From: a virus
DNA: 64,000 bases
Strand: one strand, 5' to 3'
Virus record (IMG/VR): IMGVR_UViG_3300043444_000257
Span: 20,509 to 84,508 of that record
Shown: in pieces, positions 48,135-63,854 of the stretch
Position numbering within the stretch: the first letter of the stretch is position 1
How the letters are laid out: every line of letters begins with the position of its first letter
Program-made: the position numbers and the translations under genes
Notes under the pieces: generated by a model
What the model was told of the DNA's origin: nothing
The model's database searches: none
The model's input: the letters and a program-made list of their open reading frames with translations, nothing else

Positions 48135-48142
48135 TATAAATA
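48135..48142 (+). promoter_or_regulatory. T4-type late promoter TATAAATA for the halogenase/oxygenase operon
   Basis: Perfect consensus just after the terminator and 26 nt upstream of ATG 48169. Confidence 0.7.
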
Positions 48143-48168
48143 CTTCACCATCGGTATAAGGATTAATC

Positions 48169-49788
48169 ATGCAGATTAAAAAAGTAACAATCATAGGAGG
48201 CGGTAGTTCGGGCTGGATGACCGCCGCAGCTCTTTCAAAACTATGTAAACATTTAGAAATTACAGTAGTTGAATCGTCAAAAGTAGGCACAGTTGGGGTC
48301 GGAGAAAGCACACTAGGTCATATTAATAAATTTCTAAAATTATTAGGGTTAAAAGATGAAGATTGGATGGCCGCTTGTAACGCCACATATAAGAATTCTA
48401 TTCGTTTTACTAATTTTAGAGAAGGCAACGGCGAATTTTTCGAATATCCGTTCAGTGCCGGTTTAGATTTCACAGACAAACCGCACGGTCTCCAGGCATG
48501 GAGTGAATTGGCCACGTTATATCCAGATGAATACACTCCCCAGACATTCGCAGAATTTTATTGCACAGGCAATACATTACTTGCAAAGTATGCCAAAGAA
48601 ACTAGAGACGAGAAGGGTATTTTAAGAAATTATAATTTTGATTATGATACTGCATATCATCTTGATGCACAACTGTTCGGACAATGGTTGAAGAACAACA
48701 TAGCTATTCCCAATGGTGTTAAACATATTATTAATGACATCCATAGCTTTAAGAAAGATCATTTAGGTAATATCACACAGATAATGTGTGCCGACGCATC
48801 TATATTACCTCAAACAGATCTTTGGGTAGACTGCACAGGTTTTAAATCTATCTTATTAGAAGGTTGGATGGGTCAGCAGTTTCAATCGTTTGACAAATAT
48901 CTAGCCAACGATCGAGCATGGGCATGTAGATTACCGTATACTGACAGAGAACGTCAAATGTTAAACGTCACTGACTGCCATGCTCTCAATAATGGATGGG
49001 TTTGGTATATTCCTTTATGGAATAGAATTGGCACTGGATATGTATATTCAACTAGATTTACTACTCCCGAAGAAGCAAAAAGAGAATTTAGAGAACATAT
49101 CGCCAAACAGCACAGTCCCGAAGTTGCAGAAAATGCAGAAATGTTTGAAGTAGTAATCAAACACGGAAAACGTCGCAGGGCCTGGGTGAATAACGTAGTG
49201 GGTGTAGGATTGAGTTACGGTTTTGTTGAACCTCTAGAATCTACAGGATTATTAACTACACATGAAAATATCATAAAACTTGTAGAAAATCTAAATCGCC
49301 GAAACGGCTATGTCACACGCAGCGAAATTGAAGGTTTTAATTTTGCTGTCGACTATGACGTTACAAAATTTAGAGATTTTGTAGCACAGCATTATGCATT
49401 ATCTATGAGGACTGACACGCCTTATTGGCGCTGGTGCACTCAGTTAAACGAATATTGCCCAGAGATGCAAGGGGATACGATGTTAAAACAAGCTCAATTC
49501 CCGAACCTTTTAGGAAATCTTGTAGGCAATCAGAGTTATTTTCCGGAGTATACAGGAAATATGTTTATCGCTGCTGGTATGGGAGTTAAGTCTATTTCTA
49601 CTCCAGAATTGATTTATTTCAGCGGAGACCGAATGGATGTTATTCGTAAAGAAGAAGAAATCAATTATACAAAACGTAGATATGAAGAATACAGAGATTT
49701 TGTGATAGAACATATCAAAACATTGCCGAGTCATTATCAATTCTTAAAAGATAATATCTACGGTGGAAAAGATGACCACGCTGTGTAA
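48169..49788 (+). CDS. Flavin-dependent tryptophan halogenase-like enzyme (PrnA/RebH family)
   Basis: GGGSSG FAD motif, GVGEST, CNATYK (Lys equivalent to PrnA K79), DCTGF, WVWYIP, FVEPLESTG. Confidence 0.88.
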   Translation: MQIKKVTIIGGGSSGWMTAAALSKLCKHLEITVVESSKVGTVGVGESTLGHINKFLKLLGLKDEDWMAACNATYKNSIRFTNFREGNGEFFEYPFSAGLDFTDKPHGLQAWSELATLYPDEYTPQTFAEFYCTGNTLLAKYAKETRDEKGILRNYNFDYDTAYHLDAQLFGQWLKNNIAIPNGVKHIINDIHSFKKDHLGNITQIMCADASILPQTDLWVDCTGFKSILLEGWMGQQFQSFDKYLANDRAWACRLPYTDRERQMLNVTDCHALNNGWVWYIPLWNRIGTGYVYSTRFTTPEEAKREFREHIAKQHSPEVAENAEMFEVVIKHGKRRRAWVNNVVGVGLSYGFVEPLESTGLLTTHENIIKLVENLNRRNGYVTRSEIEGFNFAVDYDVTKFRDFVAQHYALSMRTDTPYWRWCTQLNEYCPEMQGDTMLKQAQFPNLLGNLVGNQSYFPEYTGNMFIAAGMGVKSISTPELIYFSGDRMDVIRKEEEINYTKRRYEEYRDFVIEHIKTLPSHYQFLKDNIYGGKDDHAV

Positions 49789-50575
49789 ACGTTTATTCGG
49801 TTGGATGAAGAAAGAAAAAAAATCTTATGTAAGATTTTATTCTTTGGAACCGGGTGTTGCTGATATATTTCCGATCGTTAACTCGGCAAGTATTAAGAGA
49901 AATTTTATGCTTGCCGATCAAATCGGAGATAGGCCAGAAACACTTAGTTCAAAAAATTGTCCAGGAATTAGAAAAATAATTTCCTCTGGTTGGATCGTGC
50001 CTGCCCCTGCAGATTTTATAATACAAACCAACGGTGACGGAGTTAGCATGGAATGGGCAGAGCCTTACAGATTTAGCAAGGTTAGTCCTGGTAGAGATTC
50101 TTATGTTTCATCCCACACTAGAAGTCAGGCAGAGCCTCTGCTCGACGATCCCGATACTACCCTTAAAACTGTAGTAAAGCTAGAGACTCCGTGGAGGATT
50201 GAAGCCAGCGATGATGTTGTATTATTGTTCATGCCAGTTACATATAACAACGAACATAGGTTCCAGGCAGCGCATGGAATACTTGATACAAAATACGGTC
50301 ACGTATTGAATATACAGTTATTTTGGAAAGACATGAATTCTAAAACTTTAGTCAAGGCCGGAACCCCACTGGTTCAAATAATACCTATACCGAGACAAAG
50401 CCTTAGCTTATCTAACTACGATGTTATCATTGAAAAGTTTCGAGAGGAAGATTTAGAAAAAGAAAGAGCATTTAATTATGCTGCTAATTGTGTTTTTTTA
50501 AATTCAGATAGTTTAGCTAATAGATTAACGAGATCTGTTTCTATACTTAAACAATATAAAAAGGAGAAATTATGA
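49772..50575 (+). CDS. Hypothetical protein, possibly dUTPase-like beta fold
   Basis: K.CPGI......GW..PAP.D, KL.TPW and GTPLVQIIP. Canonical dUTPase motifs are incomplete. Confidence 0.45.
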   Translation: MTTLCKRLFGWMKKEKKSYVRFYSLEPGVADIFPIVNSASIKRNFMLADQIGDRPETLSSKNCPGIRKIISSGWIVPAPADFIIQTNGDGVSMEWAEPYRFSKVSPGRDSYVSSHTRSQAEPLLDDPDTTLKTVVKLETPWRIEASDDVVLLFMPVTYNNEHRFQAAHGILDTKYGHVLNIQLFWKDMNSKTLVKAGTPLVQIIPIPRQSLSLSNYDVIIEKFREEDLEKERAFNYAANCVFLNSDSLANRLTRSVSILKQYKKEKL

Positions 50576-50820
50576 GTTACTTAAAAGTTATGCAACAAAC
50601 ATTGGAAAGTGTTACAGCTGAAAAAATTACAAAAGAAGAAGAGCTAAAAAAACTAGAAGAAGAATTCGCTAATGTAAAATTAAATCCGTATGGAATTACT
50701 TCTATCGACTTCAGCAAGAGGCAAGATCTAGCCGCTGATGTTTTAAAAATGGAAGGGGTTATCATGGGCATTACATTGGCTATCGAAACCTTCGGAGAAA
50801 CACAGGGTGTTACAGCTTAA
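50572..50820 (+). CDS. Small coiled-coil hypothetical protein
   Basis: 82 aa, AAGGAG SD, overlapping both neighbours. Confidence 0.6.
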   Translation: MSYLKVMQQTLESVTAEKITKEEELKKLEEEFANVKLNPYGITSIDFSKRQDLAADVLKMEGVIMGITLAIETFGETQGVTA

Positions 50821-51391
50821 TGACGGAAGCGTTTTTGCATTTCCTCCTTATATATGGAAATTTCAATACGATTTTGAATACGACAAATTAAAAAATAAAA
50901 TCGATGATTTGTTCAATCTGGTAGAAAATAATTCAACTCTAGAAAAGGGAGATGCGATTTCAACAGTATCAGTCGATCAGTCTCTACAACCACACACCTG
51001 GGAAGAGCTAGCCGACTTTCAAAATTGGTTAGGATATACCTTTGAACGTATCAAAGATACTTATAGATTTGTCGAAAGACAATCTAATGTAACGCAGTCT
51101 TGGATTAATCGTCATGGCCACGGCGGAATCACAGAGGAGCATAATCACAATTATTCTACATTCGTTGTGAGTTGTTATCTAAAATGTCCTCAAAACTCTG
51201 GAAATATTGAATTTAAAGATCCTTTAGAATATCACTTTACTAGTTGGCCCATAGAACCCGAAGAGATTCTATATAAAGAATTTCCAGTATCGACTAACGA
51301 TGTATTAATTTTTCCAGGTTGGTTACGACATAGGGTCCAGCCAAACCTTTCTCAAGAAAATAGATACGTCATGACATTTAACATAAAATGA
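50807..51391 (+). CDS. 2OG-Fe(II) oxygenase (TIGR02466-like)
   Basis: W.N...HNH...VSCYL, IFPGWLRH.V.PN....R...TFN. Confidence 0.8.
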   Translation: MLQLNDGSVFAFPPYIWKFQYDFEYDKLKNKIDDLFNLVENNSTLEKGDAISTVSVDQSLQPHTWEELADFQNWLGYTFERIKDTYRFVERQSNVTQSWINRHGHGGITEEHNHNYSTFVVSCYLKCPQNSGNIEFKDPLEYHFTSWPIEPEEILYKEFPVSTNDVLIFPGWLRHRVQPNLSQENRYVMTFNIK

Positions 51392-52185
51392 TAGATTTTA
51401 AAGTTTGTTATCCTGATGCTAACAATTTCAATAAAGTTATTGAGATAAAAAATCTCAATGACTGGAATGTTGAATACGTGCATCTTGAAGATGATATAGG
51501 ATATTGGATAACTGATTTACCTTTTGAAAATAACTTATTAGATGTCTACAAAAATTTAATAGCAACATTTCCTATACAAAAAGATAACAGTCACCCAGAT
51601 AACTTTGATCCAAATCCCTTTGACACTATACATTTACCCGACTGGATTTATAAAGATATTTGTTTCTTGATAAGAGATTTTTATATAAAAAATGTAACAA
51701 ACAATATACTCGACCCTCAGATCCACGAATGGGGAAACCTATATAGAAAGAGTATAAACAGACCCATTTCCTGCTGGAGGATACCTCATATTGATTACGT
51801 CCACGGCATAGTAGCTAATATGTGGTTCACTGATCACGATATAAAGGACAGTTCTACAAAACTTTATAAGTATACAGGCAAAATGAATCGAGAGATATAT
51901 GATTTCCAAATAGATCCCGATCATAAAATGTTTAAAGAATGGATAGCAATGGCAGAAAATCCTAAAAGAGTTGATTGGTTCAACTATCCTGAAGAAGAAT
52001 TAAAACGTTGGGGATTTGAATTAGTAGGAGAAGCTCCGACAAAAGTAAACACAATGACTATGTATCGTGCAAATATACATCATGTGGCCTACGTCGGTAA
52101 TAATGTAGATTTTAGATGGAGCCATGCTTTTTCATTTAGCCACGAATTAGCTAAAGAAATGTCGGTGAGAGAAATATTTTTATGA
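51388..52185 (+). CDS. 2OG-Fe(II) oxygenase-like protein
   Basis: IPHID (HxD) and distal NTMTMY.ANIHH...R. Confidence 0.65.
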   Translation: MIDFKVCYPDANNFNKVIEIKNLNDWNVEYVHLEDDIGYWITDLPFENNLLDVYKNLIATFPIQKDNSHPDNFDPNPFDTIHLPDWIYKDICFLIRDFYIKNVTNNILDPQIHEWGNLYRKSINRPISCWRIPHIDYVHGIVANMWFTDHDIKDSSTKLYKYTGKMNREIYDFQIDPDHKMFKEWIAMAENPKRVDWFNYPEEELKRWGFELVGEAPTKVNTMTMYRANIHHVAYVGNNVDFRWSHAFSFSHELAKEMSVREIFL

Positions 52186-52814
52186 ATTTAGATTATTATT
52201 TTCCAACCCCAGTGTGGTGGGAGCAGACTGAAATTGATAATACGCCGATTGAAAAATTAGCGTATCGATTAAGAGAAGAAGACCCCGTTGGTAGAAAATT
52301 AAGTAACCAGGGCGGCTGGCAAAGTATGGATTTTAGACCAGGCACTTATGTAGAAGTAGCTGAGTTAGAAAAAAAGATTTTGGATCAAGCAGCCAATTGT
52401 TATCGTGACTACGGATACAAAGAAAATTGCTGTATCATAGCTATGGAAAATATGTGGATAAACATCAACGAAAAGGGATGCACTAATTCTGTTCACATAC
52501 ACGATAACAGCTTTGTTTCGGGAGCATATTATGTTAAGGCGAAAAAAGGACATGGTAATCTAACATTCTATAAAAGTTATTATCAAGATTACATAGTAGC
52601 ATCACAGGCTGCGGTTGATAGATACACTCCCATAAGCGCCAGTGCTATTACATTCGAACCCTCTAGCGGCAAACTTATAATGTTTCCGGGGTTTTTACCT
52701 CATGGAGTCGAAAGAAACGAATTAGATGAAGATCGTATTTCTATTTCATTTAATATAAAATTAATCAGGACAGACGATGAACGATATTGGCCAGAGGCTT
52801 CTCAACGAAACTAA
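52182..52814 (+). CDS. 2OG-Fe(II) oxygenase (TIGR02466-like)
   Basis: FPTPV, SNQGGWQS, WININ...HIH....SGAYY, MFPGFLPHGV....RISISFN. Confidence 0.85.
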   Translation: MNLDYYFPTPVWWEQTEIDNTPIEKLAYRLREEDPVGRKLSNQGGWQSMDFRPGTYVEVAELEKKILDQAANCYRDYGYKENCCIIAMENMWININEKGCTNSVHIHDNSFVSGAYYVKAKKGHGNLTFYKSYYQDYIVASQAAVDRYTPISASAITFEPSSGKLIMFPGFLPHGVERNELDEDRISISFNIKLIRTDDERYWPEASQRN

Positions 52815-53496
52815 TCTCTTAATAGACGACAAGCCACATTTCTTTAAACAACTGGTCAAGAATCCGGAAGAATATCTCACATGGTCGGATGTAGAAAGTT
52901 GTTTGAATAACCCGTATCTATATCAATTTGAAATGATAGATCAATATAATACCAAGATTGATATTCCTCAACATAAAAAAGCATGGATATGGGATAGAGA
53001 GATACAAGATAAACGATTTCTCTTTGATAAATTCCATCAAGGTCACGGTCTTGTAATAATGAATTACGGATTTCACAGTCAACGAACCATGGAATTATTA
53101 AAAGTTTTCGAAACTCTTTATCAGGTTAATTCTGCTATTCACGTTTACTGTGGATTGCAAAATTCTAAATCATTCACTATACATGACGATTATCCTTGCA
53201 ATTTTATTATTCAGGTAGAAGGAAGGACTCGCTGGAAAATTTTTAATAACAGAATATCATATATGTATAGAACAGGAACTATGAATGGTAGATTGCGAGA
53301 AGAAGATCTCGAAGTTGCTATTGATGTTACCTTAGAGCCCGGGGATGGTCTTTATATTCCTAGTAGAATGTATCATTGTGCCTACCCTGAAGGAAAAAGA
53401 TTAAGTATGAGTATACCGTGTTGGAATCGTTTTCCTAATGATCCACCGACAAATGCAGTAGATAGAAATTTTTATAGGATCGATTTAGATGTTTAA
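52777..53496 (+). CDS. JmjC/cupin-4 protein hydroxylase (YcfD/ROX-like)
   Basis: SF..HDD...NFIIQVEG...W.I and LEPGD.LYIP...YH.A, the JmjC HxD...H pattern. Confidence 0.8.
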   Translation: MNDIGQRLLNETNLLIDDKPHFFKQLVKNPEEYLTWSDVESCLNNPYLYQFEMIDQYNTKIDIPQHKKAWIWDREIQDKRFLFDKFHQGHGLVIMNYGFHSQRTMELLKVFETLYQVNSAIHVYCGLQNSKSFTIHDDYPCNFIIQVEGRTRWKIFNNRISYMYRTGTMNGRLREEDLEVAIDVTLEPGDGLYIPSRMYHCAYPEGKRLSMSIPCWNRFPNDPPTNAVDRNFYRIDLDV

Positions 53497-54070
53497 ACCA
53501 ATTGAAATATTTGATGTTGTTGATAAAGATTACCAGAATCAAATCTATAATTATGTCACGGATGTGAAATTTCCTTGGCATTTTTTAGGCGATACTACAT
53601 TTGAATATGCTACTAACGACCCGCAGACATCAACCCCAGGATTTGTAAATTTAGTATATCACCCCAATAACGAAGTAAATCCACATCTTGATTTTTTTAT
53701 GCCTTTATTAAATCAATGTTTAGATAAAGCCGGATTTAAATTAATCAATCTGTTAAGAATGCGAATGGGATTTTTACTGAATACAAAATATGTATTTCCG
53801 AGCCTACCTTACAAATACAATAGCCCCCACAGAGATTTTGACCAGGAACATTATACTCTAGTCTATTATGTTAATAAGTCCGACGGCGATACAGTAGTGT
53901 TTAAAGAAATTGAAGAATCTGAGAAATATAATATTTTACATCGAAGCACCCCGGATCAAGGAAAAATGTTATTATTCAATGGCTGGCACTATCATGCCAG
54001 CACTTGTCCTAAGATGTTTACAAAGCGTATAGCATTAACTATCAATTTTACAGCTGAAAAAAATGGATAA
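53489..54070 (+). CDS. 2OG-Fe(II) oxygenase
   Basis: PHRD, YYVN.SDGDT, LLFNG..YHAS..P....RI....N. Confidence 0.8.
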   Translation: MFKPIEIFDVVDKDYQNQIYNYVTDVKFPWHFLGDTTFEYATNDPQTSTPGFVNLVYHPNNEVNPHLDFFMPLLNQCLDKAGFKLINLLRMRMGFLLNTKYVFPSLPYKYNSPHRDFDQEHYTLVYYVNKSDGDTVVFKEIEESEKYNILHRSTPDQGKMLLFNGWHYHASTCPKMFTKRIALTINFTAEKNG

Positions 54071-54767
54071 GCACGTAGAACAATTAAAACAAATGAATTC
54101 TAAGAGTGCAGAATTCATTAAAAACTCCGGAATTAAAAATAGATATGTATTTCCGTATCTACCGACTATGGTCTTTGATAATTTTTATGAAGATCCCGAT
54201 GTGTGGAGAGACTTTGCATTAAATCAAGAATATTTTAAAGGCGATCGCGGAAGTTGGCCAGGCCTAAGAACCAAAATGCTGCATGAAATTGATGAAAACA
54301 TATTTCGTGTAACTATGAGAAAATTATTAATGATAGTTCGTCAATATGGGTTTACTTATTTTGATGAGCTACAAACCACATTTCAATATATAGATGGCAC
54401 ATATGGGAGAGGTTGGGTTCACGACGACGATCCAAAATTAAATATCGCTGGATTAATTTATTTGAATAAAGACGCCCCTTTAGGATCGGGAACTGTGATT
54501 TATCAAGATCAAGACGACTTCAACGGAGACCAATATACAGAATTGTTTATGAATGATGTATTGTTGTCTGATCCTATAGAAAGAGAAAAGTTTGCAAAAT
54601 ATAGACAAGAACAGGTTCAACACTTTACAAAAAGTATAGAAATTGAAAACGTTTACAATAGATGTATTATATTTGATCCTAGAAACTGGCACAGTGCTGA
54701 ACATTTCTTTGGAACTAACATAACAGAATCTAGATTAACACAAGTGTTTTTTATTAGAGCAAGATGA
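54063..54767 (+). CDS. 2OG-Fe(II) oxygenase-like (paralog of 54764)
   Basis: DNFYEDPD..R..AL, WPGLRT, GWVHDD, AGLIYL, NRCIIF....WHSA, RLTQVFF. Confidence 0.75.
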   Translation: MDKHVEQLKQMNSKSAEFIKNSGIKNRYVFPYLPTMVFDNFYEDPDVWRDFALNQEYFKGDRGSWPGLRTKMLHEIDENIFRVTMRKLLMIVRQYGFTYFDELQTTFQYIDGTYGRGWVHDDDPKLNIAGLIYLNKDAPLGSGTVIYQDQDDFNGDQYTELFMNDVLLSDPIEREKFAKYRQEQVQHFTKSIEIENVYNRCIIFDPRNWHSAEHFFGTNITESRLTQVFFIRAR

Positions 54768-57834: not shown

Positions 57835-58005
57835 TTAGCTTGGATTTTCTACTTTCATCGGGCCAGCAACAACTCGGCCGTTTCCGTGACGTTCTTCGAA
57901 GATCTTTTGAGCTTCATCTCTAGATTTTGCTTCGCAGAAATCTTCCTCAACAGCTAAAGTTCCTGGCGGTTCAGCTTTTCTTAAAATCATTTTATAGGTT
58001 GGCAT
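57835..58005 (-). CDS. Small 56-aa protein with its own late promoter
   Basis: ATG 58005 (MPTYKMILRK...) with AAGGAG SD and TAAATA at 58026-58031 (minus strand). Confidence 0.7.
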   Translation of the reverse strand: MPTYKMILRKAEPPGTLAVEEDFCEAKSRDEAQKIFEERHGNGRVVAGPMKVENPS

Positions 58006-58028: not shown

Positions 58029-59585
58029 TTATGCTGTCCTTTGGATCCACTCGTCAATTGTCCAAAATGGAGCGACAAGTTCCCTATATCGGGTTTCATT
58101 GATATTTAGCACTTTTTCTCCTATCGGCAGTGCTTTTTTATGTATACTAGATAGTAATCGATAATCGAATACCTGCAATCCTTGTAAAACCATTAACCAA
58201 GCAGTTGGGCTGTAACCATGTAACCACGGTTCTCCTTTAGTCCCATTATAATAATCTGCCCATTGCGTAAGTTTTTCTTTCAGAGAATCTGGAATTCGAA
58301 AACTATCTTCTCCGTGACTGCGCCAAAATTCAGTATCTCTTCGATGTCCCCTATAATGTAGGGCTAGGAAATCTTTGATATCTTCGGTGATATTCCATAT
58401 GCGTTGATTAAACCTGTCTCGGCGTTCCTTTCTTAAGAAATTATCAACCGGCCTCCAGTGGTCTTCTAAACAATATAGACTTTCGATAATAACTGCAACT
58501 CCATTAGCTTCTAAAGGTTCTAAAAATCCTGTGCTTAGGCCAACACCTATTACATTGTTTTTCCATGCTTCGCGCATCATACCTGGAGTAAATTGAAAAT
58601 TAGCGATAGGTTCTATATGCTGCCCGAATGATTCTCTAGCTTCGTCTAGTGCTTGATCAAGAGTTAGATGATCGGGATCATAGATGTAACCATTACCCGA
58701 CCTATGCCGTAGATTAATATTCCATGACCATCCGTATTTCATAGCAGTAGCATTAGTAGTCACACAATAACAAGGTTTATCCCACCATGCTACTACTGCT
58801 CTAGCTGGAAAATAATCTGTATAATCGACTAGTTTTTCTTCTAAAACTTTTCCTAATAACAATCTGGCAAACCCCGAGCAATCAAAGAACCAATCGGCAG
58901 ATAGATCGATTCCTTCTTCTAAATGAATAGTTTCTATATCGCCATTTTCTTTTTGAGTCGCGTGTGTGTATACCCCTTCAACTAATTTGATTCCTCGAGA
59001 CAATGCTATTTTTTTAAAATAAGCAGCAGCGCCACGACTTTCAAAATGCCACATAGGCACACAAGGAAGGATTGATTCTGAACCTATAGGAACTTTTTGA
59101 TTCTTTATAAACTGCGTAGCATAGAACGCACGAGCTAACGGGATGTCGTTGGCTATGATTGTTTTTAAATAAAGATCTTTTTCTTGTTCTCTATTCATTA
59201 TAGAAAACAAGGTTCCGAGATTTAATTCTTCTTCAGTGGCAGTTTTAACATAGTCGCTCCACCCGTCTAGCCAGGGAGCATAATCGGTCTGTAAAGAATG
59301 AATAAATTCAGTCCCCATACCATTCCAATTTTTAAAATGTCCTCCCACTTTAGGTGTAGCGTTTACATTTTTAATAAAATCGTTGATGTCTATTTTTAAG
59401 TTTTTTAAAAGACTAACAAATGTAGTAGTCCCGCTTTCACCTGCAATGATAGGAGGCTGTTTAGGATTTTCTACAACAATGATATCTACATTAGGATAAT
59501 GCCGATCGACAAATAATGCTGTTAACCAACCGGCCGTTCCGCCCCCTAAAATTATAGCTTTAGAGTTTATAGCTAAGTTCTTCAT
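58029..59585 (-). CDS. Flavin-dependent halogenase-like enzyme, divergent
   Basis: GGGTAG, AGESG, NATPK, DCSGF, WSWNIN (variant of WxWxIP), FLEPLEANG. Confidence 0.82.
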   Translation of the reverse strand: MKNLAINSKAIILGGGTAGWLTALFVDRHYPNVDIIVVENPKQPPIIAGESGTTTFVSLLKNLKIDINDFIKNVNATPKVGGHFKNWNGMGTEFIHSLQTDYAPWLDGWSDYVKTATEEELNLGTLFSIMNREQEKDLYLKTIIANDIPLARAFYATQFIKNQKVPIGSESILPCVPMWHFESRGAAAYFKKIALSRGIKLVEGVYTHATQKENGDIETIHLEEGIDLSADWFFDCSGFARLLLGKVLEEKLVDYTDYFPARAVVAWWDKPCYCVTTNATAMKYGWSWNINLRHRSGNGYIYDPDHLTLDQALDEARESFGQHIEPIANFQFTPGMMREAWKNNVIGVGLSTGFLEPLEANGVAVIIESLYCLEDHWRPVDNFLRKERRDRFNQRIWNITEDIKDFLALHYRGHRRDTEFWRSHGEDSFRIPDSLKEKLTQWADYYNGTKGEPWLHGYSPTAWLMVLQGLQVFDYRLLSSIHKKALPIGEKVLNINETRYRELVAPFWTIDEWIQRTA

Positions 59586-61068
59586 AACGTCCTTTTAATC
59601 TATTAATTGCTTCTCTGTGAGTGAAAACATCGACATCTAAGTTTTCAGTTTGCTTGGCGTTTGTTATATTGTGTATAGAAAGATCGGTATACTTATTAAG
59701 ATGCTTTTTATATTTGTCTTTTATAGAATTATAGTCAAACATCCTTAACCCGTGCATAACTTGTGCATAATTTAAATGACTGAAAAGAATCAACGGCACA
59801 TTAAAATAGTAGCCATTTGGGAATCCCTTTTTAAAATAATCTAAATTCTCTCTATTAAAATCTGTTTTAACTATTTCGTGCTTACACCAACGCCAAAATT
59901 CTGTGTCATTTCTTTCAGTGAAATAATGTAGTTGGATAAAGTCTACAATGTTTGATGCTATCTGAGACATATGATCGTTATATCGTTTAGCAGTTAGGTT
60001 TTCTCCTTTTTCATAGAAGAAAATCGAAGGTGTTAAAATAAAACATTGTTGTATGGTAGTTCCAATACTGCTGGCTTCTAAAGGTTCTACAAATATTCCG
60101 CTAAGGCCTATTTGAACACAATTCTTAATCCAAAATTCTTTGACATATCCTGCACCAAATTTAACTTTCCTTCCGATCTTTAATTCGTCTGATATATTAA
60201 GATTGTCTTTGTAGTGTTTGCTAACTTCAGCATAAGCCTCATCTTCGTCGATAAAGTCATCGCAGAATACATATCCATTCCCATATCTTTCCTGTGTGGG
60301 AATACGCCAGACCCAACCGCTGCCTAATGCGGTGGCTTCTGTGTAGCTAGGAATGTCTTCGGTATACCCCGTAGGAAAAGCAATAGCAGAGTTCATCGGT
60401 AATTGTTTTGTGCAATCTACCCATTGAGTGCCTAATGCTGTTCCTATAATTCTTCTAAATCCGCTGCAATCTATATAAAAATCGTAGGCATGTGTGTTAT
60501 TTTCTGAGTCTTTTAATTCTTTCACATAGCCTTGGTCATCTAAAATTACTTGTTCTATTTCTGTATCTACAAAGCTGATTCCTCTTTCTTGACATTTTCT
60601 ATGTAAAAAATCGTTAAGTTTAAAAGTGTCGAAGTGATACTGTGCTAATATATCGTGTAATGGTTCTACGTGTATACTTTTTTGACTTAATGCCCACGAT
60701 GTATCTAACGGATCTAGATTTTCTCCAGCCATATAAATCCAAGTCACTGGTAATCCACTTTCCTTGGAATGATGACCATATTGTTCGCTGATGCTGTGGA
60801 AGTAACTAGTGCCATCACCGTGCCAATTAGTAAACTTAATACCAATTTTAAAAGTAGCACCGCATTCTCGCATAAGTTCTGGAACAGAAATACCAACATG
60901 CTCTATAAATTTTTTCCAATGTTCTGTAGATCCTTCACCGACTCCTATGATGCCTATCTTGCTAGATTCTATTACAGTAACTTTTAATTCGGAGTAAGCG
61001 TGTTTAAGCATCAATGCAGCGACTAATCCGCTGGTTCCTCCGCCAACAATACATAATGAATCGATCAT
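59560..61068 (-). CDS. Flavin-dependent tryptophan halogenase-like enzyme
   Basis: GGGTSG, GVGEGS, CGATFK, DCSGF, WVWRIP, FVEPLEAS. Confidence 0.87.
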   Translation of the reverse strand: MIDSLCIVGGGTSGLVAALMLKHAYSELKVTVIESSKIGIIGVGEGSTEHWKKFIEHVGISVPELMRECGATFKIGIKFTNWHGDGTSYFHSISEQYGHHSKESGLPVTWIYMAGENLDPLDTSWALSQKSIHVEPLHDILAQYHFDTFKLNDFLHRKCQERGISFVDTEIEQVILDDQGYVKELKDSENNTHAYDFYIDCSGFRRIIGTALGTQWVDCTKQLPMNSAIAFPTGYTEDIPSYTEATALGSGWVWRIPTQERYGNGYVFCDDFIDEDEAYAEVSKHYKDNLNISDELKIGRKVKFGAGYVKEFWIKNCVQIGLSGIFVEPLEASSIGTTIQQCFILTPSIFFYEKGENLTAKRYNDHMSQIASNIVDFIQLHYFTERNDTEFWRWCKHEIVKTDFNRENLDYFKKGFPNGYYFNVPLILFSHLNYAQVMHGLRMFDYNSIKDKYKKHLNKYTDLSIHNITNAKQTENLDVDVFTHREAINRLKGRYEELSYKL

Positions 61069-62564
61069 AATTTATATTCCGTTTTAATATTACTCATACT
61101 TTTAACATAATTAATAGCATCTCTACAGGTCATCCAACCTTTTATAGGCTCTTGTTCTATTTGACCGAGCATCTGTTCGTCGTCGTAGCGTCGATGACCG
61201 TATCTCTGTTCATATAATTTTTTGATACTAGCAGTATCAAACATTCTTAGCCCGTGCATGACCTGTATCCAGTTTAGGCAATCATAAATTCTAAAATTGC
61301 TCATTAGACCGTCTTCTGGTAGCAGGGTTTGATTGACAAAATTCTTTTTAAAATTTTCTAAATTTTCTTTGTTGAAATCGGTCATGGTCATTTCGTTCTT
61401 ACACCAACGCCAGAATTCTGTGTCATTACGTTCAGTGAAATAATGCAGTTGTATAAAATCAAGGATATTATACATCATGTCATCGACTACCCTATTGTAT
61501 TCTTTGATAGTGCCAGTATCTGATCTACTCCAGTTCCAAATAGATGCTGTCAACATTTGAAGTTGTTTAATAGTTGTAGAAATACTAGATGCTTCTAAAG
61601 GTTCTACAAAGTTACTGCTGAGTCCTATGCTGACACAGTTTTTAATCCAAGCACGATTTACTTTACCTGACACATAGTTAATCTTACGACCTACATGTAT
61701 GGTATCTTTAAAATGCTTTTGTATTTCATCTAAAGCCTGTTGCTCTGTGATAAAGTTGTCACTGAACACATAACCGTTGCCAAATCTATCCTGCACAGGA
61801 CTGCGCCAGTGCCAACCTGCATCCATAGCTCTAGCTAGGGTGTATGGCGGAATCTTTTCTTCATAGGCAGTTTGAAAAGCGATAGCAGAGTTTAACGGAA
61901 GATATTTGGTCCAATCAACCCACTCAGCTCCTAATTTAGATGCTACAACTCTTTTGAATCCACTGCTGTCAATGAAAAAGTCTGCAGAATATCGCTGTCC
62001 TTGATCATCAACAATAGCGTCAACAAATCCCTCAGAGTCTAAAATTGGACCCACTATTTCAGCATCTATAATTTCTATTTCTAACGAACGACATTTCTTT
62101 TCTAAGAAAGCATTTAGTTTTTCGCTGTCAAAGTGAAATTGGTAATAGTCAGTGAGAGGTTCACGGACATAGCCCTGCATAGGTAAATCCCAATGTAGTT
62201 TATCACTAGGAACACCGTTGGCTATCATGCCCATCATAGTGTAAGGAGCACCAGAATAGCTGTCCATCCATATTAGAAATTCTGGCAGACTGTGAAAGTA
62301 ACTAGTGCCATCACCGTGCCAATTTTCAAATTTGATTCCTATCTTGATAGTGGCACCACATTCGTTAATAAGGTCTATGATATTGATACCGACTGCATGT
62401 GCGAATCTAGTCCAGTGTTCTGTGCTGCCTTCTCCTACACCTATAGTTCCTATCTTTTTAGATTTTATCAGTTTTATCTTTAATTCGGGTAGTGCTGTTT
62501 TTAGATACAAAGCTGCCATTAATCCGGCATTACCTCCACCTAACACTATAACGTCATTGATCAT
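61065..62564 (-). CDS. Flavin-dependent tryptophan halogenase-like enzyme (close paralog of 59560)
   Basis: GGGNAG, GVGEGSTEHW, CGATIK, WHWRSP, FVEPLEASSI. Shares NWHGDGTSYFHS and LHYFTERNDTEFWRWCK with 59560. Confidence 0.87.
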   Translation of the reverse strand: MINDVIVLGGGNAGLMAALYLKTALPELKIKLIKSKKIGTIGVGEGSTEHWTRFAHAVGINIIDLINECGATIKIGIKFENWHGDGTSYFHSLPEFLIWMDSYSGAPYTMMGMIANGVPSDKLHWDLPMQGYVREPLTDYYQFHFDSEKLNAFLEKKCRSLEIEIIDAEIVGPILDSEGFVDAIVDDQGQRYSADFFIDSSGFKRVVASKLGAEWVDWTKYLPLNSAIAFQTAYEEKIPPYTLARAMDAGWHWRSPVQDRFGNGYVFSDNFITEQQALDEIQKHFKDTIHVGRKINYVSGKVNRAWIKNCVSIGLSSNFVEPLEASSISTTIKQLQMLTASIWNWSRSDTGTIKEYNRVVDDMMYNILDFIQLHYFTERNDTEFWRWCKNEMTMTDFNKENLENFKKNFVNQTLLPEDGLMSNFRIYDCLNWIQVMHGLRMFDTASIKKLYEQRYGHRRYDDEQMLGQIEQEPIKGWMTCRDAINYVKSMSNIKTEYKL

Positions 62565-63168
62565 TTACAATCCTTATTGTTGCTCTCGAGTCAGTTGCTA
62601 AATTATGATTGATTTTTCCATTAGGTAGACAATTAAAACTGATAATATATCTATTTTTATCTCCGTAGTGGGTCAAACTACTGTGATACATCCAACTAGG
62701 AAAAATTACTAGCTTTCCAGGTTCCGGGTTAAAATTATAAAACGGATGATAATCAAATCTAAGAACTTCTAACTGTGCTTGGGTCCTGTGTATCACTGGA
62801 TCTTCAAATACTGTAGGAGAACCTTCAGACAGGTAATACACGGCACTGAGTAAACTCATCGAATGCCTGTGAACATTTTGATACATTTTGTAATCTGCAA
62901 GGGCCACATTAAACCAGCTGCTAGAAATTTCTAAACTATCACAATCATATTTCATGTAATCTTTAACAGAATTTAAACAATGATCAAACCAAGAAAACAA
63001 TTCTTTAAATTCGTCATGCTTTCTTAGATCCTCTAACATACTAAGAGTGGATGTTTTTTTAATTTCTATATTTTCAAGTTTATCTAGATAAGAAATCAAC
63101 TGTTGATTATCAACAGTGGTATTTTTAAAAACAAAAAGTTCTGTAGGGAATAAACTTAGAACTTCCAT
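62554..63168 (-). CDS. 2OG-Fe(II) oxygenase (TIGR02466-like)
   Basis: LFPT, SWFN...HRH....SAVYY, IFPSWMYH, RYIISFN. Start at ATG 63168. Confidence 0.8.
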   Translation of the reverse strand: MEVLSLFPTELFVFKNTTVDNQQLISYLDKLENIEIKKTSTLSMLEDLRKHDEFKELFSWFDHCLNSVKDYMKYDCDSLEISSSWFNVALADYKMYQNVHRHSMSLLSAVYYLSEGSPTVFEDPVIHRTQAQLEVLRFDYHPFYNFNPEPGKLVIFPSWMYHSSLTHYGDKNRYIISFNCLPNGKINHNLATDSRATIRIVNDQ

Positions 63169-63746
63169 TAAAATTCTACCCACCCGGTTAATAGATACTT
63201 TTCCCCGCTCAACGGAGGATTGCCTCTATGAGCATGTGTAAATCCTGCTGGCCAAATCACTAAATTTCCCTGTATAGCAGGAATCCTGATGCCTTGATAT
63301 AGAAATTCAGTTTCTCCGCCCTGTTCGATGGTGTTAAGATACAGTCCCCAAGCACAGATACGGCCTGCACGTTCTAAACTATCCGACTCAAAATGCCAGA
63401 TATGATACCCTTGTCCGGGCAGGGTTTTTTGCAATTTCATCATGCGCACCTGATGCTTACTGGCTTCGGTTAATACGCTGTAATGATCCATGTATTGATT
63501 ATAGCAGTTCCAAAAGCGTTCCATAAATTGGGTGATAAAACTAGTATCAGGTGTGAATCTAAGGCTCTGTTGTTCTAAAACAAAAACAGCTTTATCATTT
63601 TTTCTATGGCTTGGAGCATCGCCGATCTGCAGCCTGCTATAACTTAGGTTCAGTCCAGCCATACTCTCGTAATGATCTATCAAAACCTGGCATTCTTTTT
63701 CGGTCATTATGCCTTCAAAAACAGCGATATCTTTATTTAGATCCAT
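63168..63746 (-). CDS. 2OG-Fe(II) oxygenase (P4H-like)
   Basis: GYHIWHFE, YLN...GGETEF, IWPAGFTH.HRGNPP...KY..TGW. Late motif at 63767-63772 (minus strand). Confidence 0.85.
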   Translation of the reverse strand: MDLNKDIAVFEGIMTEKECQVLIDHYESMAGLNLSYSRLQIGDAPSHRKNDKAVFVLEQQSLRFTPDTSFITQFMERFWNCYNQYMDHYSVLTEASKHQVRMMKLQKTLPGQGYHIWHFESDSLERAGRICAWGLYLNTIEQGGETEFLYQGIRIPAIQGNLVIWPAGFTHAHRGNPPLSGEKYLLTGWVEF

Positions 63747-63854
63747 GTTTAAATTATCCTCAAGGGTATTTATGTGTGTAGTTTATCAGCGTTTTTAAAG
63801 ACGAACACCGTTTTTAACTCCGCGATAAATACACTATCATAATGGATTTCAAAC

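What the first reader, a model, noticed from the sequence alone, without database searches (positions are those of the whole stretch)
48135..63772. Late-promoter cluster of 4 flavin halogenases and 13 2OG-Fe(II)/JmjC oxygenases: possible virion-protein or peptide modification system
Seen: about 15.6 kb consisting almost entirely of oxidative tailoring enzymes in two convergent, tightly overlapped operons. Each starts at a T4-late motif (TATAAATA 48135-48142; TAAATA 63767-63772 on minus), and the cluster is flanked by fibre genes on both sides. All four halogenase-like proteins keep the FAD GxGxxG and the Lys equivalent to PrnA K79. No flavin reductase, NRPS/PKS or transporter lies in the window. 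Known: T4-like cyanophages carry 2OG-Fe(II) oxygenases and PrnA-like genes (the cyanophage halogenase VirX1 is active in vitro), but native substrates are unclear to me. Inference: late timing, position and the diversity of paralogs fit post-translational decoration (halogenation, hydroxylation) of the neighbouring Trp/Tyr-rich and His/Asn/Gly-rich fibre proteins better than small-molecule metabolism.
Basis: partly seen in the sequence, partly recalled or inferred. Interest (0 to 1): 0.85.

Follow-up and report, generated by a model that had tools for sequence, protein, structure and literature searches.

The report
Fibre-tip genes with halogenase-oxygenase array
A giant uncultured freshwater phage carries, between its tail-fibre genes, a conserved block of four halogenase and thirteen oxygenase-type genes that always travels with one fibre-tip gene family, which makes those fibre proteins a testable but unproven candidate target of these puzzling viral enzymes.

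Summary
Window 48135-63772 holds 4 flavin-dependent halogenase genes, 13 Fe/2OG-type oxygenase genes (10 over Pfam cut-offs, 3 inferred) and 3 genes of unknown function. They form two convergent, overlapping operons between tail-fibre genes.

It is not a new kind. The plus-strand operon is collinear with the Syn9 gp38-gp54 dioxygenase/halogenase array of Iyer et al. 2010 (PMC2938197). H1 is an orthologue of the iodinase VirX1 (PDB 6qgm, E 1e-191). This scan has noted near-identical clusters on other DNA (e1-5667366, e1-6068276).

- The contig is not a T4-like cyanophage. Its capsid protein is 66-69% identical to jumbo phages such as PA5oct and Serratia BF, and I found no psbA or hli.
- Exact TATAAATA is not enriched, but ATAAATA lies 20-67 nt upstream of a start codon in 10 of 12 cases, including fibre genes and both enzyme operons.
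- The fibre-tip genes T1-T3 and the Trp-rich gp40-like gene U occur only with a VirX1-type halogenase beside them: 20 of 20 cultured-phage records and 66 of 66 evaluable IMG/VR loci. The enzymes also occur without T or U.

Modification of T or U is my best reading (about 0.4) and is unproven. Small-molecule tailoring remains a real rival.

The parts
30751..44151 (+). F1 (30751-36222) and F2 (36259-44151), long tail-fibre proteins; context to the left of the module
   Evidence: phrog_9851 tail fibre, E 3e-161 and 3e-167. ATAAATA lies 21 nt upstream of F2.
44165..44956 (+). f3 (44165-44485) and f4 (44501-44956), small fibre-associated proteins
   Evidence: PHROG tail-fibre or tail families. They are syntenic in 5 of 5 long relatives and in the IMG/VR loci.
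44967..47554 (+). T1, T2 and T3: three Gly/His-rich fibre-tip paralogues (283, 285 and 284 aa), orthologues of Syn9 gp38/gp39
   Evidence: phrog_863 at E 4e-47 to 2e-54. Pfam Gly_rich_2 at 30.9 bits. 50-66% identity to Syn9 and S-CREM1. Each paralogue has its own orthologue in relatives.
47546..47553 (+). TATAAATA, 20 nt upstream of U and overlapping the end of T3
47573..48070 (+). U: gp40-family protein of 165 aa with 8 Trp. Candidate fibre chaperone, adaptor or substrate.
   Evidence: 52% identical to Syn9 gp40. Six Trp are at least 98% conserved in 55 sequences, including the C-terminal motif PxWxRYPGWxGY. Atlas places it in the 'Gp40 family'; the Caudo_TAP leads are weak at 0.85-0.86.
48087..48115 (+). 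Terminator-like hairpin plus T run after U
   Evidence: Read; the scan lists the stem. A like hairpin is present in 5 of 6 clade members examined.
48135..48142 (+). TATAAATA, a late-promoter-like motif 27 nt upstream of H1
   Evidence: ATAAATA or TAAATA is kept at this place in 6 of 6 clade members.
48169..49788 (+). H1: flavin-dependent halogenase, orthologue of VirX1
   Evidence: Pfam Trp_halogenase E 1e-100. PDB 6qgm VirX1 E 1.2e-191 over the full length. 53% identical to Syn9 gp42 and 61% to S-CREM1_69.
49763..50575 (+). A: gp43-family protein (an ATG at 49805 is an alternative start)
   Evidence: phrog_7084. 51-53% identical to Syn9 gp43 and S-CREM1_70. Cys66 and many charged residues are invariant. 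Atlas gives Gp43 family, with DUF6065 in 17-30% of members.
50572..50820 (+). B: 82-aa protein, orthologue of Syn9 gp44
   Evidence: No family found.
50807..57831 (+). Eleven oxygenase-type genes in tandem: O1 50807-51391, O2 51388-52185, O3 52182-52814, O4 (JmjC) 52777-53496, O5 53489-54070, O6 54063-54767, O7 54764-55375, O8 55366-55992, O9 55989-56594 (the ORF opens at 55911), C 56591-57202, O10 57199-57831
   Evidence: Pfam, PHROGs, conserved metal motifs, hhalign grouping, collinearity with Syn9 gp45-gp54.
57835..58005 (-). S: conserved 56-aa protein with its own ATAAATA motif (58026-58032, minus strand) and an AAGGAG ribosome-binding site
   Evidence: No Pfam or PHROG family.
58029..62564 (-). 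H2 (58029-59585), H3 (59560-61068) and H4 (61065-62564): three halogenases of a non-VirX1 subgroup
   Evidence: Pfam E 3e-86, 1e-104 and 7e-101. H3 is about as close to PrnA, BrvH and RebH as to any other solved halogenase, and VirX1 ranks last of 30. The best phage hits are S-SCSM2R PrnA at 41% and S-H38 at 37%.
62554..63746 (-). O11 (62554-63183) and O12 (63168-63746), oxygenases at the head of the minus-strand operon
   Evidence: Pfam 2OG-FeII_Oxy_5 at 55.1 bits and 2OG-FeII_Oxy_3 at 34.6 bits. O12 matches Bacillus anthracis prolyl 4-hydroxylase at E 0.002.
63767..63773 (-). ATAAATA (as CATAAATA), 21 nt upstream of O12
   Evidence: Kept in 6 of 9 sequences examined, the window included.
63825..64000 (+). 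ATAAATA (63825-63831) and the start (63855) of a fibre-like gene R that is cut by the contig end
   Evidence: In relatives the gene at this place is up to 2160 aa and F2-like.

Best explanation
WHAT IT IS (high confidence). This is an expanded copy of the Syn9-type fibre-tip plus dioxygenase/halogenase module. Its order is three Gly/His-rich fibre-tip proteins (T1-T3), a Trp-rich gp40-like protein (U), a VirX1-orthologous halogenase (H1), gp43-like and gp44-like proteins (A, B) and eleven tandem oxygenases. Facing it is a second operon with a small protein S, three more halogenases and two oxygenases. The host phage is a roughly 370-kb freshwater jumbo phage, not a demonstrated cyanophage.

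HOW IT MOST LIKELY WORKS (inferred, about 0.4). The enzymes are made together with the virion proteins from ATAAATA late-type promoters. They act in the cytoplasm on phage-made proteins of the same module. They would hydroxylate (JmjC, P4H-like and other Fe/2OG enzymes) and halogenate (the flavin enzymes, using host-reduced FAD and halide) side chains of the fibre-tip adhesins T1-T3, of U, or of both. The most concrete candidate sites are the exposed, invariant C-terminal PxWxRYPGWxGY tail of U and the invariant His clusters of T. The result would be a chemically tailored receptor-binding tip.

SHOWN: gene identities, catalytic motifs, synteny, co-occurrence and the position of the promoter motif.
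INFERRED: the timing, the substrate and every chemical step.
For: 1. IDENTITY. Pfam. H1 matches VirX1 (6qgm) at E 1.2e-191. The catalytic Lys and Glu are invariant in all four halogenases. Metal motifs are conserved in all 13 oxygenase-type families.
2. HOMOLOGY OF THE MODULE. The window genes T, U, H1, A, B, O1, O2, C, O3, O4, O5, O6/O7, O9 and O10 are collinear with Syn9 gp38-gp54 and S-CREM1_67-80 at 33-66% identity.
3. LINKAGE IN CULTURED PHAGES. U occurs in 20 of 50,697 phage records and T in 20. These are the same 20 records. T lies within about 1.7 kb upstream of U, and a halogenase follows U. A distant member of the U family finds the same 20 records plus only 4 short motif matches.
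4. LINKAGE IN UNCULTURED PHAGES. In 80 IMG/VR loci, T3 lies directly upstream of U in 73 of 73 evaluable. H1 is the next gene in 61 of 66 evaluable, and follows after one extra oxygenase in the other 5. All 5 long relatives have the same order.
5. ASYMMETRY. Halogenases occur in 70 phage records, VirX1-type ones in 26 and JmjC O4-like genes in 27. So T and U never occur without the enzymes, but the enzymes occur without T and U. That is the pattern expected if T or U depends on the enzymes.
6. DISTRIBUTION ACROSS PHAGE GROUPS. The module sits in two very different phage groups. The window's capsid protein is 66-69% identical to PA5oct, Serratia BF, fHe-Yen9-04 and Phosso-type jumbo phages. None of those appears among the T, U or H1 hits.
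7. PROMOTER MOTIF. ATAAATA lies 20-67 nt upstream of a start in 10 of 12 cases (0.33 expected). The starts include F2, U, H1, S, O12 and R. The motif is conserved in relatives, and in Syn9 it lies upstream of gp40.
8. NO SCAFFOLD-BUILDING ENZYME. The 20 cluster genes are 4 halogenases, 13 oxygenase-type genes and A, B and S.
9. NEAREST SOLVED RELATIVES. O4 is nearest to the peptidyl hydroxylases NO66 (E 5e-8) and YcfD (E 4e-4). O12 weakly matches a prolyl 4-hydroxylase.
10. VIRX1. It is described as having a large, accessible active site and no known natural product (review PMC8407142, passages read).
11. TRP CONTENT. U has the highest Trp content of the 29 proteins tabulated (4.8%), and 6 of its 8 Trp are at least 98% conserved.
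Against: No modified residue has been seen, and no expression data exist for this phage. Synteny within the jumbo clade is inherited and is not independent evidence, so the independent lineages number only about two groups. Block transfer plus insertion into the known variable region behind the fibre genes could keep these genes together without shared function.

VirX1's reported substrates are small aromatic molecules. No flavin halogenase acting on a folded virion protein is known to me. The one peptide-acting solved halogenase (5uao) is among the weakest PDB matches of H1 and H3.

Iyer et al. read the Syn9 array as secondary-metabolite synthesis. Thirteen different oxygenases seem many for four small proteins. 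The X-Pro-Gly motif at the C-terminus of T is not invariant: it is absent in L043. Loss of O12 in G001 is not matched by loss of that motif. So the one co-variation test I tried failed.

The weak Atlas leads suggest that U may simply be a fibre-assembly chaperone. Distant relatives of A sit beside thymidylate synthase and DNA polymerase in haloviruses, which points to nucleotides rather than proteins.
Confidence: 0.4

Rival explanations
1. Small-molecule tailoring. The array hydroxylates and halogenates a free amino acid, a short peptide or another host metabolite, giving a secondary metabolite such as an antibiotic-like or siderophore-like compound. This is what Iyer et al. 2010 proposed for Syn9. 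The fibre genes would be neighbours only.
For: This is the published reading of the homologous Syn9 array, and related bacterial neighbourhoods combine JmjC, 2OGFeDO, Trp halogenases, SapC and TonB receptors (passages). VirX1 halogenates many small aromatics in vitro. Halogenases and oxygenases occur in phages without T or U. A has many invariant charged residues plus an invariant Cys, as an enzyme would.
Against: The module has no NRPS, PKS, ATP-grasp or other scaffold-forming enzyme and no exporter. T and U are never found without the halogenase: 20 of 20 records, 66 of 66 loci. The promoter motif is shared with virion genes. A lytic jumbo phage gains little from a late-made antibiotic.
Confidence: 0.25
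2. Receptor-matched host modification. The enzymes alter the host receptor, the host envelope, or a ligand of the receptor that T recognises, late in infection. This would prevent superinfection or stop progeny being trapped on debris. Such enzymes would have to co-evolve with T and so would travel with it.
For: It explains the tight linkage between T/U and the enzymes and the late-type motif as well as the best explanation does. Linkage of receptor-blocking genes to receptor-binding genes is known in other phages (recalled, for example T5 llp next to its receptor-binding gene; not checked here).
Against: None of the 20 proteins was found to match a secretion-related family, and I ran no signal-peptide predictor. 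Fe/2OG and flavin enzymes need cytoplasmic cofactors. No glycan- or lipid-handling enzyme lies in the module.
Confidence: 0.1
3. Host-protein modification. The JmjC, P4H-like and other oxygenases hydroxylate host ribosomal proteins, translation factors or other host proteins to reprogramme the cell.
For: The nearest solved relatives of O4 are the ribosomal oxygenases NO66 and YcfD. PF13640 is the prolyl-hydroxylase type of family.
Against: Host take-over is normally an early function, whereas these operons carry the motif shared with virion genes. It does not explain the exclusive linkage to T and U, nor the four halogenases.
Confidence: 0.08
4. Nucleobase or nucleotide modification. The dUTPase-fold protein A binds a pyrimidine nucleotide, and the halogenases and oxygenases modify bases, giving phage DNA or RNA hypermodification.
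For: Iyer et al. assign gp43 (my A) a dUTPase-like fold. The A profile's only PDB match is the WSSV protein wsv112, which I recall to be a dUTPase, at a non-significant E of 1.2. Distant A homologues in Halorubrum viruses lie beside thymidylate synthase and DNA polymerase. Some Fe/2OG families act on bases (introduction passage).
Against: The module lies in the fibre region, not the replication module. The promoter motif is of late type. No TET/JBP or AlkB family match was found (the only AlkB-type family, 2OG-FeII_Oxy_2, scores 19.4 against a cut-off of 31.2 in O10). The linkage to T and U is unexplained.
Confidence: 0.07
5. Turnover of 2-oxoglutarate. The oxygenases mainly consume 2OG (or O2) to manipulate host nitrogen-status signalling, as Sullivan et al. 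2010 suggested for cyanomyoviruses.
For: The proposal is published (PMC3037559, passages).
Against: Thirteen deeply diverged families, each kept as its own orthologue across relatives at 40-99% identity, argue for distinct substrates rather than bulk 2OG drain. It does not explain the halogenases or the T/U linkage. The host here is not shown to be a cyanobacterium.
Confidence: 0.05

Closest known systems
Syn9 gp38-gp54 neighbourhood: a tandem array of ten dioxygenases, two Trp halogenases and a dUTPase-fold Cys protein (Iyer, Abhiman, de Souza, Aravind 2010, NAR, PMC2938197); also present in Syn10 and S-CREM1
   Same: The gene order is the same, gene for gene: fibre-tip T, gp40-like U, halogenase, gp43-like A, gp44-like B, then oxygenases including the MINA/NO66-type JmjC. 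Identity is 33-66%. ATAAATA lies upstream of gp40 in Syn9.
   Different: The host phage is a jumbo phage with a PA5oct/BF-type capsid protein and no psbA or hli. There are three T paralogues instead of two, and one VirX1-type halogenase instead of two. A terminator plus promoter lies between U and H1. A whole second convergent operon (S, H2-H4, O11, O12) is absent from Syn9. The published paper does not, in the passages I read, link the array to the fibre-tip genes.
VirX1, the iodinating flavin-dependent halogenase of cyanophage Syn10 (PDB 6qgm)
   Same: H1 aligns over its full length at E 1.2e-191. It keeps GxGxxG, WxWxIP and the catalytic Lys and Glu, and it occupies the same place in the module.
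   Different: Identity to the Syn9/Syn10 gene is about 53%. Activity, halide preference and substrate are untested. H2-H4 are not VirX1-like: VirX1 ranks last of 30 PDB matches for H3.
Ribosomal oxygenases NO66/MINA53 and YcfD (JmjC_2, PF08007)
   Same: O4 passes the JmjC_2 cut-off at 60 bits and matches NO66 at E 5e-8 and YcfD at E 4e-4. Its HxD...H motif is conserved. Iyer et al. place its orthologue Syn9 gp49 in the MINA clade.
   Different: O4 has 239 aa and only the catalytic core aligns (residues 103-213). The dimerisation and winged-helix parts of NO66 and YcfD are absent. The substrate is unknown.
Proteobacterial JmjC / 2OGFeDO / Trp-halogenase / SapC / TonB-receptor neighbourhoods (Iyer et al. 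2010)
   Same: They combine the same enzyme families. According to the paper, the gp52-like family (my O6/O7, DUF6445) is shared.
   Different: The window has no TonB receptor and no SapC. I could not fetch bacterial loci to compare (one search failed).
Host recognition cluster, or hyperplastic region, behind the fibre genes of cyano- and pelagimyophages (PMC7029224; PMC2984593)
   Same: It is a variable island in the fibre region that mixes fibre genes with enzymes that seem unrelated to them (passages).
   Different: Here the island is not variable. Its order is kept across relatives down to about 45% protein identity.

Membership tests
Flavin-dependent (Trp-type) halogenase, PF04820 | Whole-protein Pfam score over the curated cut-off | tested here: met
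   The four proteins score 338, 290, 351 and 339 bits against a cut-off of 21.
Flavin-dependent (Trp-type) halogenase, PF04820 | FAD-binding GxGxxG near the N-terminus | tested here: met
   G10, G11, G12 and G15 (H1 numbering) are invariant in H1-H4.
Flavin-dependent (Trp-type) halogenase, PF04820 | Catalytic Lys (PrnA K79) and Glu (PrnA E346) | tested here: met
   In the H3-PrnA alignment, H3 K74 pairs with K79 and the second E of EPLE pairs with E346. Both columns are invariant in H1-H4.
Flavin-dependent (Trp-type) halogenase, PF04820 | WxWxIP motif | tested here: inconclusive
   H1 has WVWYIP and H3 has WVWRIP, both intact. H2 has WSWNIN and H4 has WHWRSP. Both Trp are invariant; Ile/Pro are not.
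Flavin-dependent (Trp-type) halogenase, PF04820 | Halogenating activity with FADH2, O2 and halide | not testable with these tools
   This needs an enzyme assay. No phage flavin reductase (PF01613) was found in 5 records.
VirX1 orthologue (H1 only) | Full-length best match to VirX1 and the same position in the module | tested here: met
   6qgm E 1.2e-191, residues 2-533 against 3-529; the next match is E 6e-78. H1 is collinear with Syn9 gp42.
Fe(II)/2OG oxygenase (double-stranded beta-helix) | Family model over the cut-off | tested here: inconclusive
   Ten of 13 are over the cut-off: O1, O3, O5, O8, O9, O11, O12, O4 (JmjC_2), O6 and O7 (DUF6445). O2, C and O10 are not. hhalign links only {O1, O3, O8, O11}, {O5, O9} and {O6, O7}; C to O1 has probability 38%.
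Fe(II)/2OG oxygenase (double-stranded beta-helix) | HxD/E...H iron-binding triad | tested here: inconclusive
   It is conserved at 95% or more in O2, O4, O5, O6, O7, O9, O10 and O12. O1, O3, O8, O11 and C instead keep HxH...H. None has HxG/A, the radical-halogenase type.
Syn9-type dioxygenase/halogenase array (Iyer et al. 2010) | Tandem array of diverse dioxygenases including a MINA/NO66-type JmjC, Trp halogenase(s), and the gp43-type protein with a conserved Cys | tested here: met
   Collinear with Syn9 and S-CREM1. O4 is 58% identical to gp49. A is 51% identical to gp43 and has an invariant Cys.
T4-type late promoter | TATAAATA-like -10 element placed just upstream of late (virion) genes | tested here: inconclusive
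   The exact 8-mer is not enriched: 3 against 6.2 expected. ATAAATA is positional: 10 of 12 against 0.33. It is conserved in relatives. NATAAATA is the cyanomyovirus late motif according to PMC2984593.
T4-type late promoter | Late timing and dependence on a gp55-type sigma factor | not tested
   No RNA data were available, and I made no search for gp55, gp33 or gp45 homologues.
   The best capsid-protein matches, at 66-69%, are jumbo phages of Sinorhizobium, Vibrio, Pseudomonas, Yersinia, Erwinia and Serratia. There are 0 of 5 records with psbA and 0 of 5 with hli; the largest record is 265 kb and 72% complete. The records are incomplete, so absence is not proven.

The most novel reading that the evidence does not exclude
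The receptor-binding tip of a phage tail fibre is chemically tailored after translation by a dedicated enzyme battery. Halogenated Trp or Tyr and hydroxylated His, Pro, Asn or Lys would be installed on the Gly/His-rich tip proteins T1-T3, on the Trp-rich gp40-like protein U, or on both. That would make these proteins the long-sought natural substrates of VirX1-type viral halogenases and of the many cyanophage 2OG oxygenases. It would be the first enzymatic halogenation of a virus-particle protein and a new way for phages to diversify host recognition without changing the fibre sequence.
Probability: 0.3. Interest if true: 0.9.

Novelty: new variant of a known kind. Interest (0 to 1): 0.6.

Why it matters
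Marine and freshwater phages carry very many 2OG-oxygenase genes and a good number of halogenase genes. One review counts 76 and 20 of 153 cyanophage genomes respectively. Their natural role has been open since at least 2005-2010. VirX1 is used as a biocatalyst, yet the review's enzyme table lists no natural product for it.

The comparative result here is that one fibre-tip gene family and its gp40-like partner never occur without a VirX1-type halogenase, while the reverse does not hold. This turns a vague 'auxiliary metabolic gene' label into one specific experiment on cultured phages that already exist (Syn9, Syn10, S-CREM1, P-TIM40, S-RIM44). If the experiment is positive, it reveals a new layer of host-range determination. 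If it is negative, it pushes the field towards a phage-made small molecule.

The window also shows that the module has spread beyond cyanophages into an abundant clade of roughly 370-kb jumbo phages. U-family proteins form 238 clusters at 90% identity, on contigs of up to 381 kb.

Tried and rejected
- MEGABLAST of the 15.7-kb cluster against the phage collection found no match.
No fold evidence was obtained, and fold search was never used.
- U. Its profile against PDB gave only chance-level matches. No fused or longer forms were found (weak evidence by the tool's own note). Pfam at E up to 1 gave nothing.
- A. Its profile against PDB gave only wsv112 at E 1.2, which is not significant. Pfam on 19 members gave nothing useful.
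- OXYGENASES AGAINST PDB. O5 had no match. O3 matched only uncharacterised structural-genomics proteins.
- BACTERIAL LOCI for the DUF6445 family. The alignment was too diverse for the search for related loci on genome contigs.
Three related-loci scans with distant members returned mostly the same clade, one locus cut at the contig end (L136) and one locus with no match to any window protein (L137). Whether distant U relatives also sit beside halogenases is therefore unknown.
- CO-VARIATION of the X-Pro-Gly motif in T with the P4H-like O12. Rejected: G001 lacks O12 but keeps the motif, and G004 lacks both.
- SIGMA-70-LIKE PROMOTERS AND TERMINATORS in 44100-64000 are not above shuffled expectation: 73 against 69.7, and 12 against 11.8.
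- SEQUENCING RUNS. No RNA holder is listed. The holders are freshwater or aquatic DNA metagenomes.
- PAPERS NOT HELD. Doron et al. 2016 (Syn9 transcriptome) and Gkotsi et al. 2019 (VirX1). Weigele et al. 2007 (Syn9 virion proteome) was not looked up; I saw it only as a reference-list entry without a PMC id. So the expression class of Syn9 gp38-gp54, and whether gp38-gp40 are in the virion, could not be checked.
- SUPPLEMENTS are closed. Sullivan 2010 Tables S4 and S6, the Iyer 2010 Supplementary Data and S-CREM1 Tables S1-S3 may bear on the family assignments.
- LITERATURE SEARCHES for a published link between fibres and halogenases. 'tail fiber' + halogenase + phage gave 8 papers and 'jumbo phage' + halogenase gave 2. 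I read passages of PMC7824862, PMC2984593 and PMC12801897 and saw only the listings of the rest. None that I read states such a link.
- I considered S and B as RiPP-like precursor peptides and rejected this. Neither has Trp, S looks like a small folded protein, and B is predicted by eye to be helical.

Full report
WHAT IS THERE

The window is the last 64 kb of an 84.5-kb IMG/VR viral contig that CheckV rates 23% complete. Between 48135 and 63772 lie 20 genes in two convergent operons whose neighbouring genes overlap by 4-38 nt.

The plus-strand operon runs H1, A, B, O1, O2, O3, O4, O5, O6, O7, O8, O9, C, O10. Read in its own direction, the minus-strand operon runs O12, O11, H4, H3, H2, S.

Pfam on 19 of these ORFs gave:
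- 4 Trp_halogenase matches (E 1e-100 to 3e-86);
- 7 matches over the cut-off to 2OG-FeII_Oxy_3 or Oxy_5;
- 1 JmjC_2 match;
- 2 DUF6445 matches;
- 5 ORFs without a family over the cut-off.

The small ORF S was scanned later and matched nothing.

All four halogenases keep GxGxxG and the residues aligned with PrnA K79 and E346. WxWxIP is altered in H2 and H4.

In alignments of 8-49 orthologues, all 13 oxygenase-type families keep metal-binding motifs. Eight have HxD/E...H. Five (O1, O3, O8, O11, C) have HxH...H. None has the HxG/A of radical halogenases. hhalign links only three groups among them. The array is therefore made of deeply diverged families, not recent duplicates.

THE PHAGE

The major capsid protein is 66-69% identical to jumbo phages of Sinorhizobium, Vibrio, Pseudomonas (PA5oct), Yersinia, Erwinia and Serratia. 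A related contig of 265 kb is rated 72% complete, which implies a genome of about 370 kb. U-family proteins lie on contigs of up to 381 kb.

No psbA, hli or flavin reductase was found in the contig or in four related records. Runs that hold the DNA are freshwater or aquatic metagenomes. 'T4-like cyanophage' is therefore not supported for this contig. The host is unknown.

IT IS A KNOWN KIND OF CLUSTER

A note from this scan on another genome (e1-5667366) pointed me to Iyer, Abhiman, de Souza and Aravind 2010 (PMC2938197). I read its passages. The paper describes a tandem array in cyanophage Syn9 of ten dioxygenases, including the MINA/NO66-type gp49. The array also has two Trp halogenases and a dUTPase-fold protein with a conserved Cys. 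The authors suggest organohalogen secondary metabolism.

I tested the homology directly. tblastn of the window proteins on the Syn9 and S-CREM1 regions shows gene-for-gene collinearity at 33-66% identity:
- T with gp38/39
- U with gp40
- H1 with gp42
- A with gp43
- B with gp44
- O1 with gp45
- O2 with gp46
- C with gp47
- O3 with gp48
- O4 with gp49
- O5 with gp50/51
- O6 and O7 with gp52
- O9 with gp53
- O10 with gp54

H1 matches the Syn10 enzyme VirX1 (PDB 6qgm) at E 1.2e-191. H3 does not: VirX1 ranks last of its 30 PDB matches. H2-H4 are nearest to the PrnA-like genes of S-SCSM2R and S-H38, at 37-41%.

Large oxygenase arrays are also on record. S-CREM1 has ten, and S-SCSM1 is said to have 24 (PMC9964418, passage).

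CONSERVATION

Thirty-one IMG/VR loci found with H3 show the same order wherever the contig reaches, at 40-99% protein identity, and each paralogue matches its own orthologue. There are variants:
- Seven loci (L022-L025, L033, L035, L036) have a second A-like gene and an O3-like gene where O12 and O11 stand. A further five (L018, L019, L029, L031, L032) have extra genes of those kinds next to O12 and O11.
- L020 and L021 have an extra H1-like halogenase.
- L034 has only H3 on that arm.

Five long relatives all show F, f3, f4, T1, T2, T3, U, H1.

THE LINKAGE THAT MATTERS

In 50,697 phage records, U is found in 20 (E up to 1e-5) and T in 20 (E up to 1e-8). These are the same 20 records: Syn9 (2), Syn10, S-CREM1, P-TIM40 (2), P-RSM6 (2), S-RIM44 (5), Sf-FR1, S-SZBM1 (2), S-WAM1 (2), Sf-FP1 and Sf-CH3.

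In each, T lies within about 1.7 kb upstream of U and a halogenase follows U. In Syn10 and S-RIM44 the VirX1-type copy comes after a second place or annotated halogenase, whose position the calls do not give.

VirX1-type halogenases (E up to 1e-60) occur in 26 records. The six without T or U are S-B64 (2), S-H35 (2), Sf-CH11 and Sf-CH1a. Any halogenase occurs in 70 records and O4-like JmjC genes in 27.

In 80 IMG/VR loci found with a U profile (118 stretches matched, the best 80 kept):
- T3 is directly upstream of U in 73 of 73 evaluable loci;
- H1 is the next gene in 61 of 66 evaluable loci;
- in the other 5 it follows one extra oxygenase.

Most of these loci belong to the same jumbo clade. 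They show stability rather than independent events. The independent comparison is jumbo clade against Kyanoviridae.

A caveat applies: BLAST's low-complexity filter and my E-value limits could hide distant Gly-rich relatives of T.

U AND THE OTHER NON-ENZYME GENES

U has 8 Trp in 165 residues (4.8%), the highest share of the 29 proteins tabulated. Six of these Trp are at least 98% conserved in 55 sequences. Two of them sit in an invariant C-terminal PxWxRYPGWxGY that follows a variable linker.

The Atlas calls U a 'Gp40 family' protein. Its nearest named clusters are tail-assembly-chaperone families, at scores of only 0.85-0.86, which the tool rates as leads. A full HMMER scan found 162 representatives. 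Most are 100-150 aa and match only the N-terminal 120 residues.

A belongs to the gp43 family. It has an invariant Cys and many invariant charged residues. Its weak relatives in Halorubrum viruses lie beside thymidylate synthase and DNA polymerase.

S is a conserved 56-aa protein. It has its own ATAAATA, which overlaps the stop codon of H2, and a strong ribosome-binding site.

PROMOTERS

Exact TATAAATA occurs 3 times against 6.2 expected. The 7-mer ATAAATA occurs 12 times, and 10 of these lie 20-67 nt upstream of one of the 60 start codons I listed. Random placement gives 0.33.

The genes served include a virion structural protein (start at 5636, minus strand), F2, U, H1, S, O12 and the right-hand fibre gene R. 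The motif is kept at the H1 position in 6 of 6 clade members, at S in 7 of 8 and at O12 in 6 of 9. In Syn9 it lies upstream of gp40.

NATAAATA is the reported late motif of cyanomyoviruses (PMC2984593, passage). Timing itself is not shown: no RNA data exist for this phage, and the Syn9 transcriptome paper is not held.

INTERPRETATION

Four points favour a phage-made protein of the module as substrate:
- the one-way dependence, in which T and U never occur without the enzymes but the enzymes occur without T and U;
- the shared promoter class;
- the absence of any scaffold-building enzyme;
- the peptidyl-hydroxylase affinities of O4 and, weakly, O12.

VirX1's large, accessible pocket, and the dash under 'natural product' in the review's enzyme table (PMC8407142, passages), are compatible with a bulky substrate.

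Several points count against this reading. There is no chemical evidence. All known VirX1 substrates are small molecules. Iyer et al. read the array as metabolite synthesis. Thirteen oxygenases are many for four small proteins. The one co-variation test I could run failed. U may be only a chaperone, and A hints at nucleotides.

I put the fibre-module-protein reading at about 0.4 and small-molecule tailoring at about 0.25. The rest is spread over receptor or envelope modification, host-protein modification, nucleobase modification and 2OG drain.

NOVELTY AND VERDICT

The cluster type, the VirX1 family and multi-copy phage oxygenases are all published, and this scan has already reported near-identical clusters on other DNA (e1-5667366 and e1-6068276). 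What this window adds:
- a member in a non-cyanophage jumbo lineage;
- a second halogenase operon;
- quantified evidence for the tie between fibre tip, U and halogenase;
- evidence for the ATAAATA motif.

It is a new variant of a known kind. Its interest lies in making the old question of what these viral enzymes act on directly testable in cultured phages.

Noticed in passing
window 57835-58032 (minus strand): The small conserved ORF S (56 aa) has its own ATAAATA motif overlapping the stop codon of H2 and a strong AAGGAG site. The motif is kept in 7 of 8 sequences examined. No family was found and its function is unknown.
   Followed up: partly
window 50807-51391, 52182-52814, 55366-55992, 56591-57202, 62554-63183: Five of the 13 oxygenase-type proteins (O1, O3, O8, C, O11; four PF13759-type plus C, which has no Pfam family) keep HxH...H instead of the usual HxD/E...H iron triad. 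This may be a feature of the whole family rather than of this phage.
   Followed up: partly
window 44967-47554: The T1-T3 fibre-tip paralogues share near-invariant His clusters (GHGE; HPQGG; H.H..H) and, in most members, a collagen-like C-terminal GHRGSDGRPG. The Pro-Gly part is lost in one lineage (L043).
   Followed up: partly
window 48087-48142: A terminator hairpin followed by ATAAATA separates U from H1 in the jumbo clade. In Syn9 and S-CREM1, U and the halogenase are only 16-40 nt apart with no such signals. The two groups therefore differ in operon structure.
   Followed up: partly
window 48001-58000 against 44001-48000: G+C falls from 0.45-0.48 in the T region to 0.32-0.38 across the enzyme array. 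This may reflect Gly codons in T, or a different origin for the array.
   Followed up: no
L018, L022-L025, L031-L033, L035, L036: A second, diverged copy of the gp43-like gene (276 aa, 38-42% identical to A) and an O3-like gene stand at or next to the place of O12 and O11 in one sub-clade.
   Followed up: no
L125 (Halovirus HSTV-2, gene 40) and other Halorubrum tailed viruses: Weak homologues of the gp43-like protein A (26-28% identity over about 65% of the protein) lie next to thymidylate synthase and DNA polymerase genes.
   Followed up: partly
L044 (G005), L060, L063, L064, L096, L110-L112, L122, L124, L135: Some relatives carry two halogenase genes in tandem after U, as Syn9 does. L068, L072, L076, L077 and L088 carry an extra oxygenase between U and H1.
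   Followed up: no
P0210 (1857 aa) and P0229 (717 aa): Two long proteins hold 7-8 repeats that match a short stretch of the N-terminal domain of U (profile positions 20-80 and 15-40).
   Followed up: no
PMC12801897 (S-SCSM2R virion proteome): A 2OG-Fe(II) oxygenase annotated as prolyl 3,4-dihydroxylase was detected by mass spectrometry in CsCl-purified virions of a cyanomyovirus. The authors think it is carried in the virion or highly expressed.
   Followed up: no
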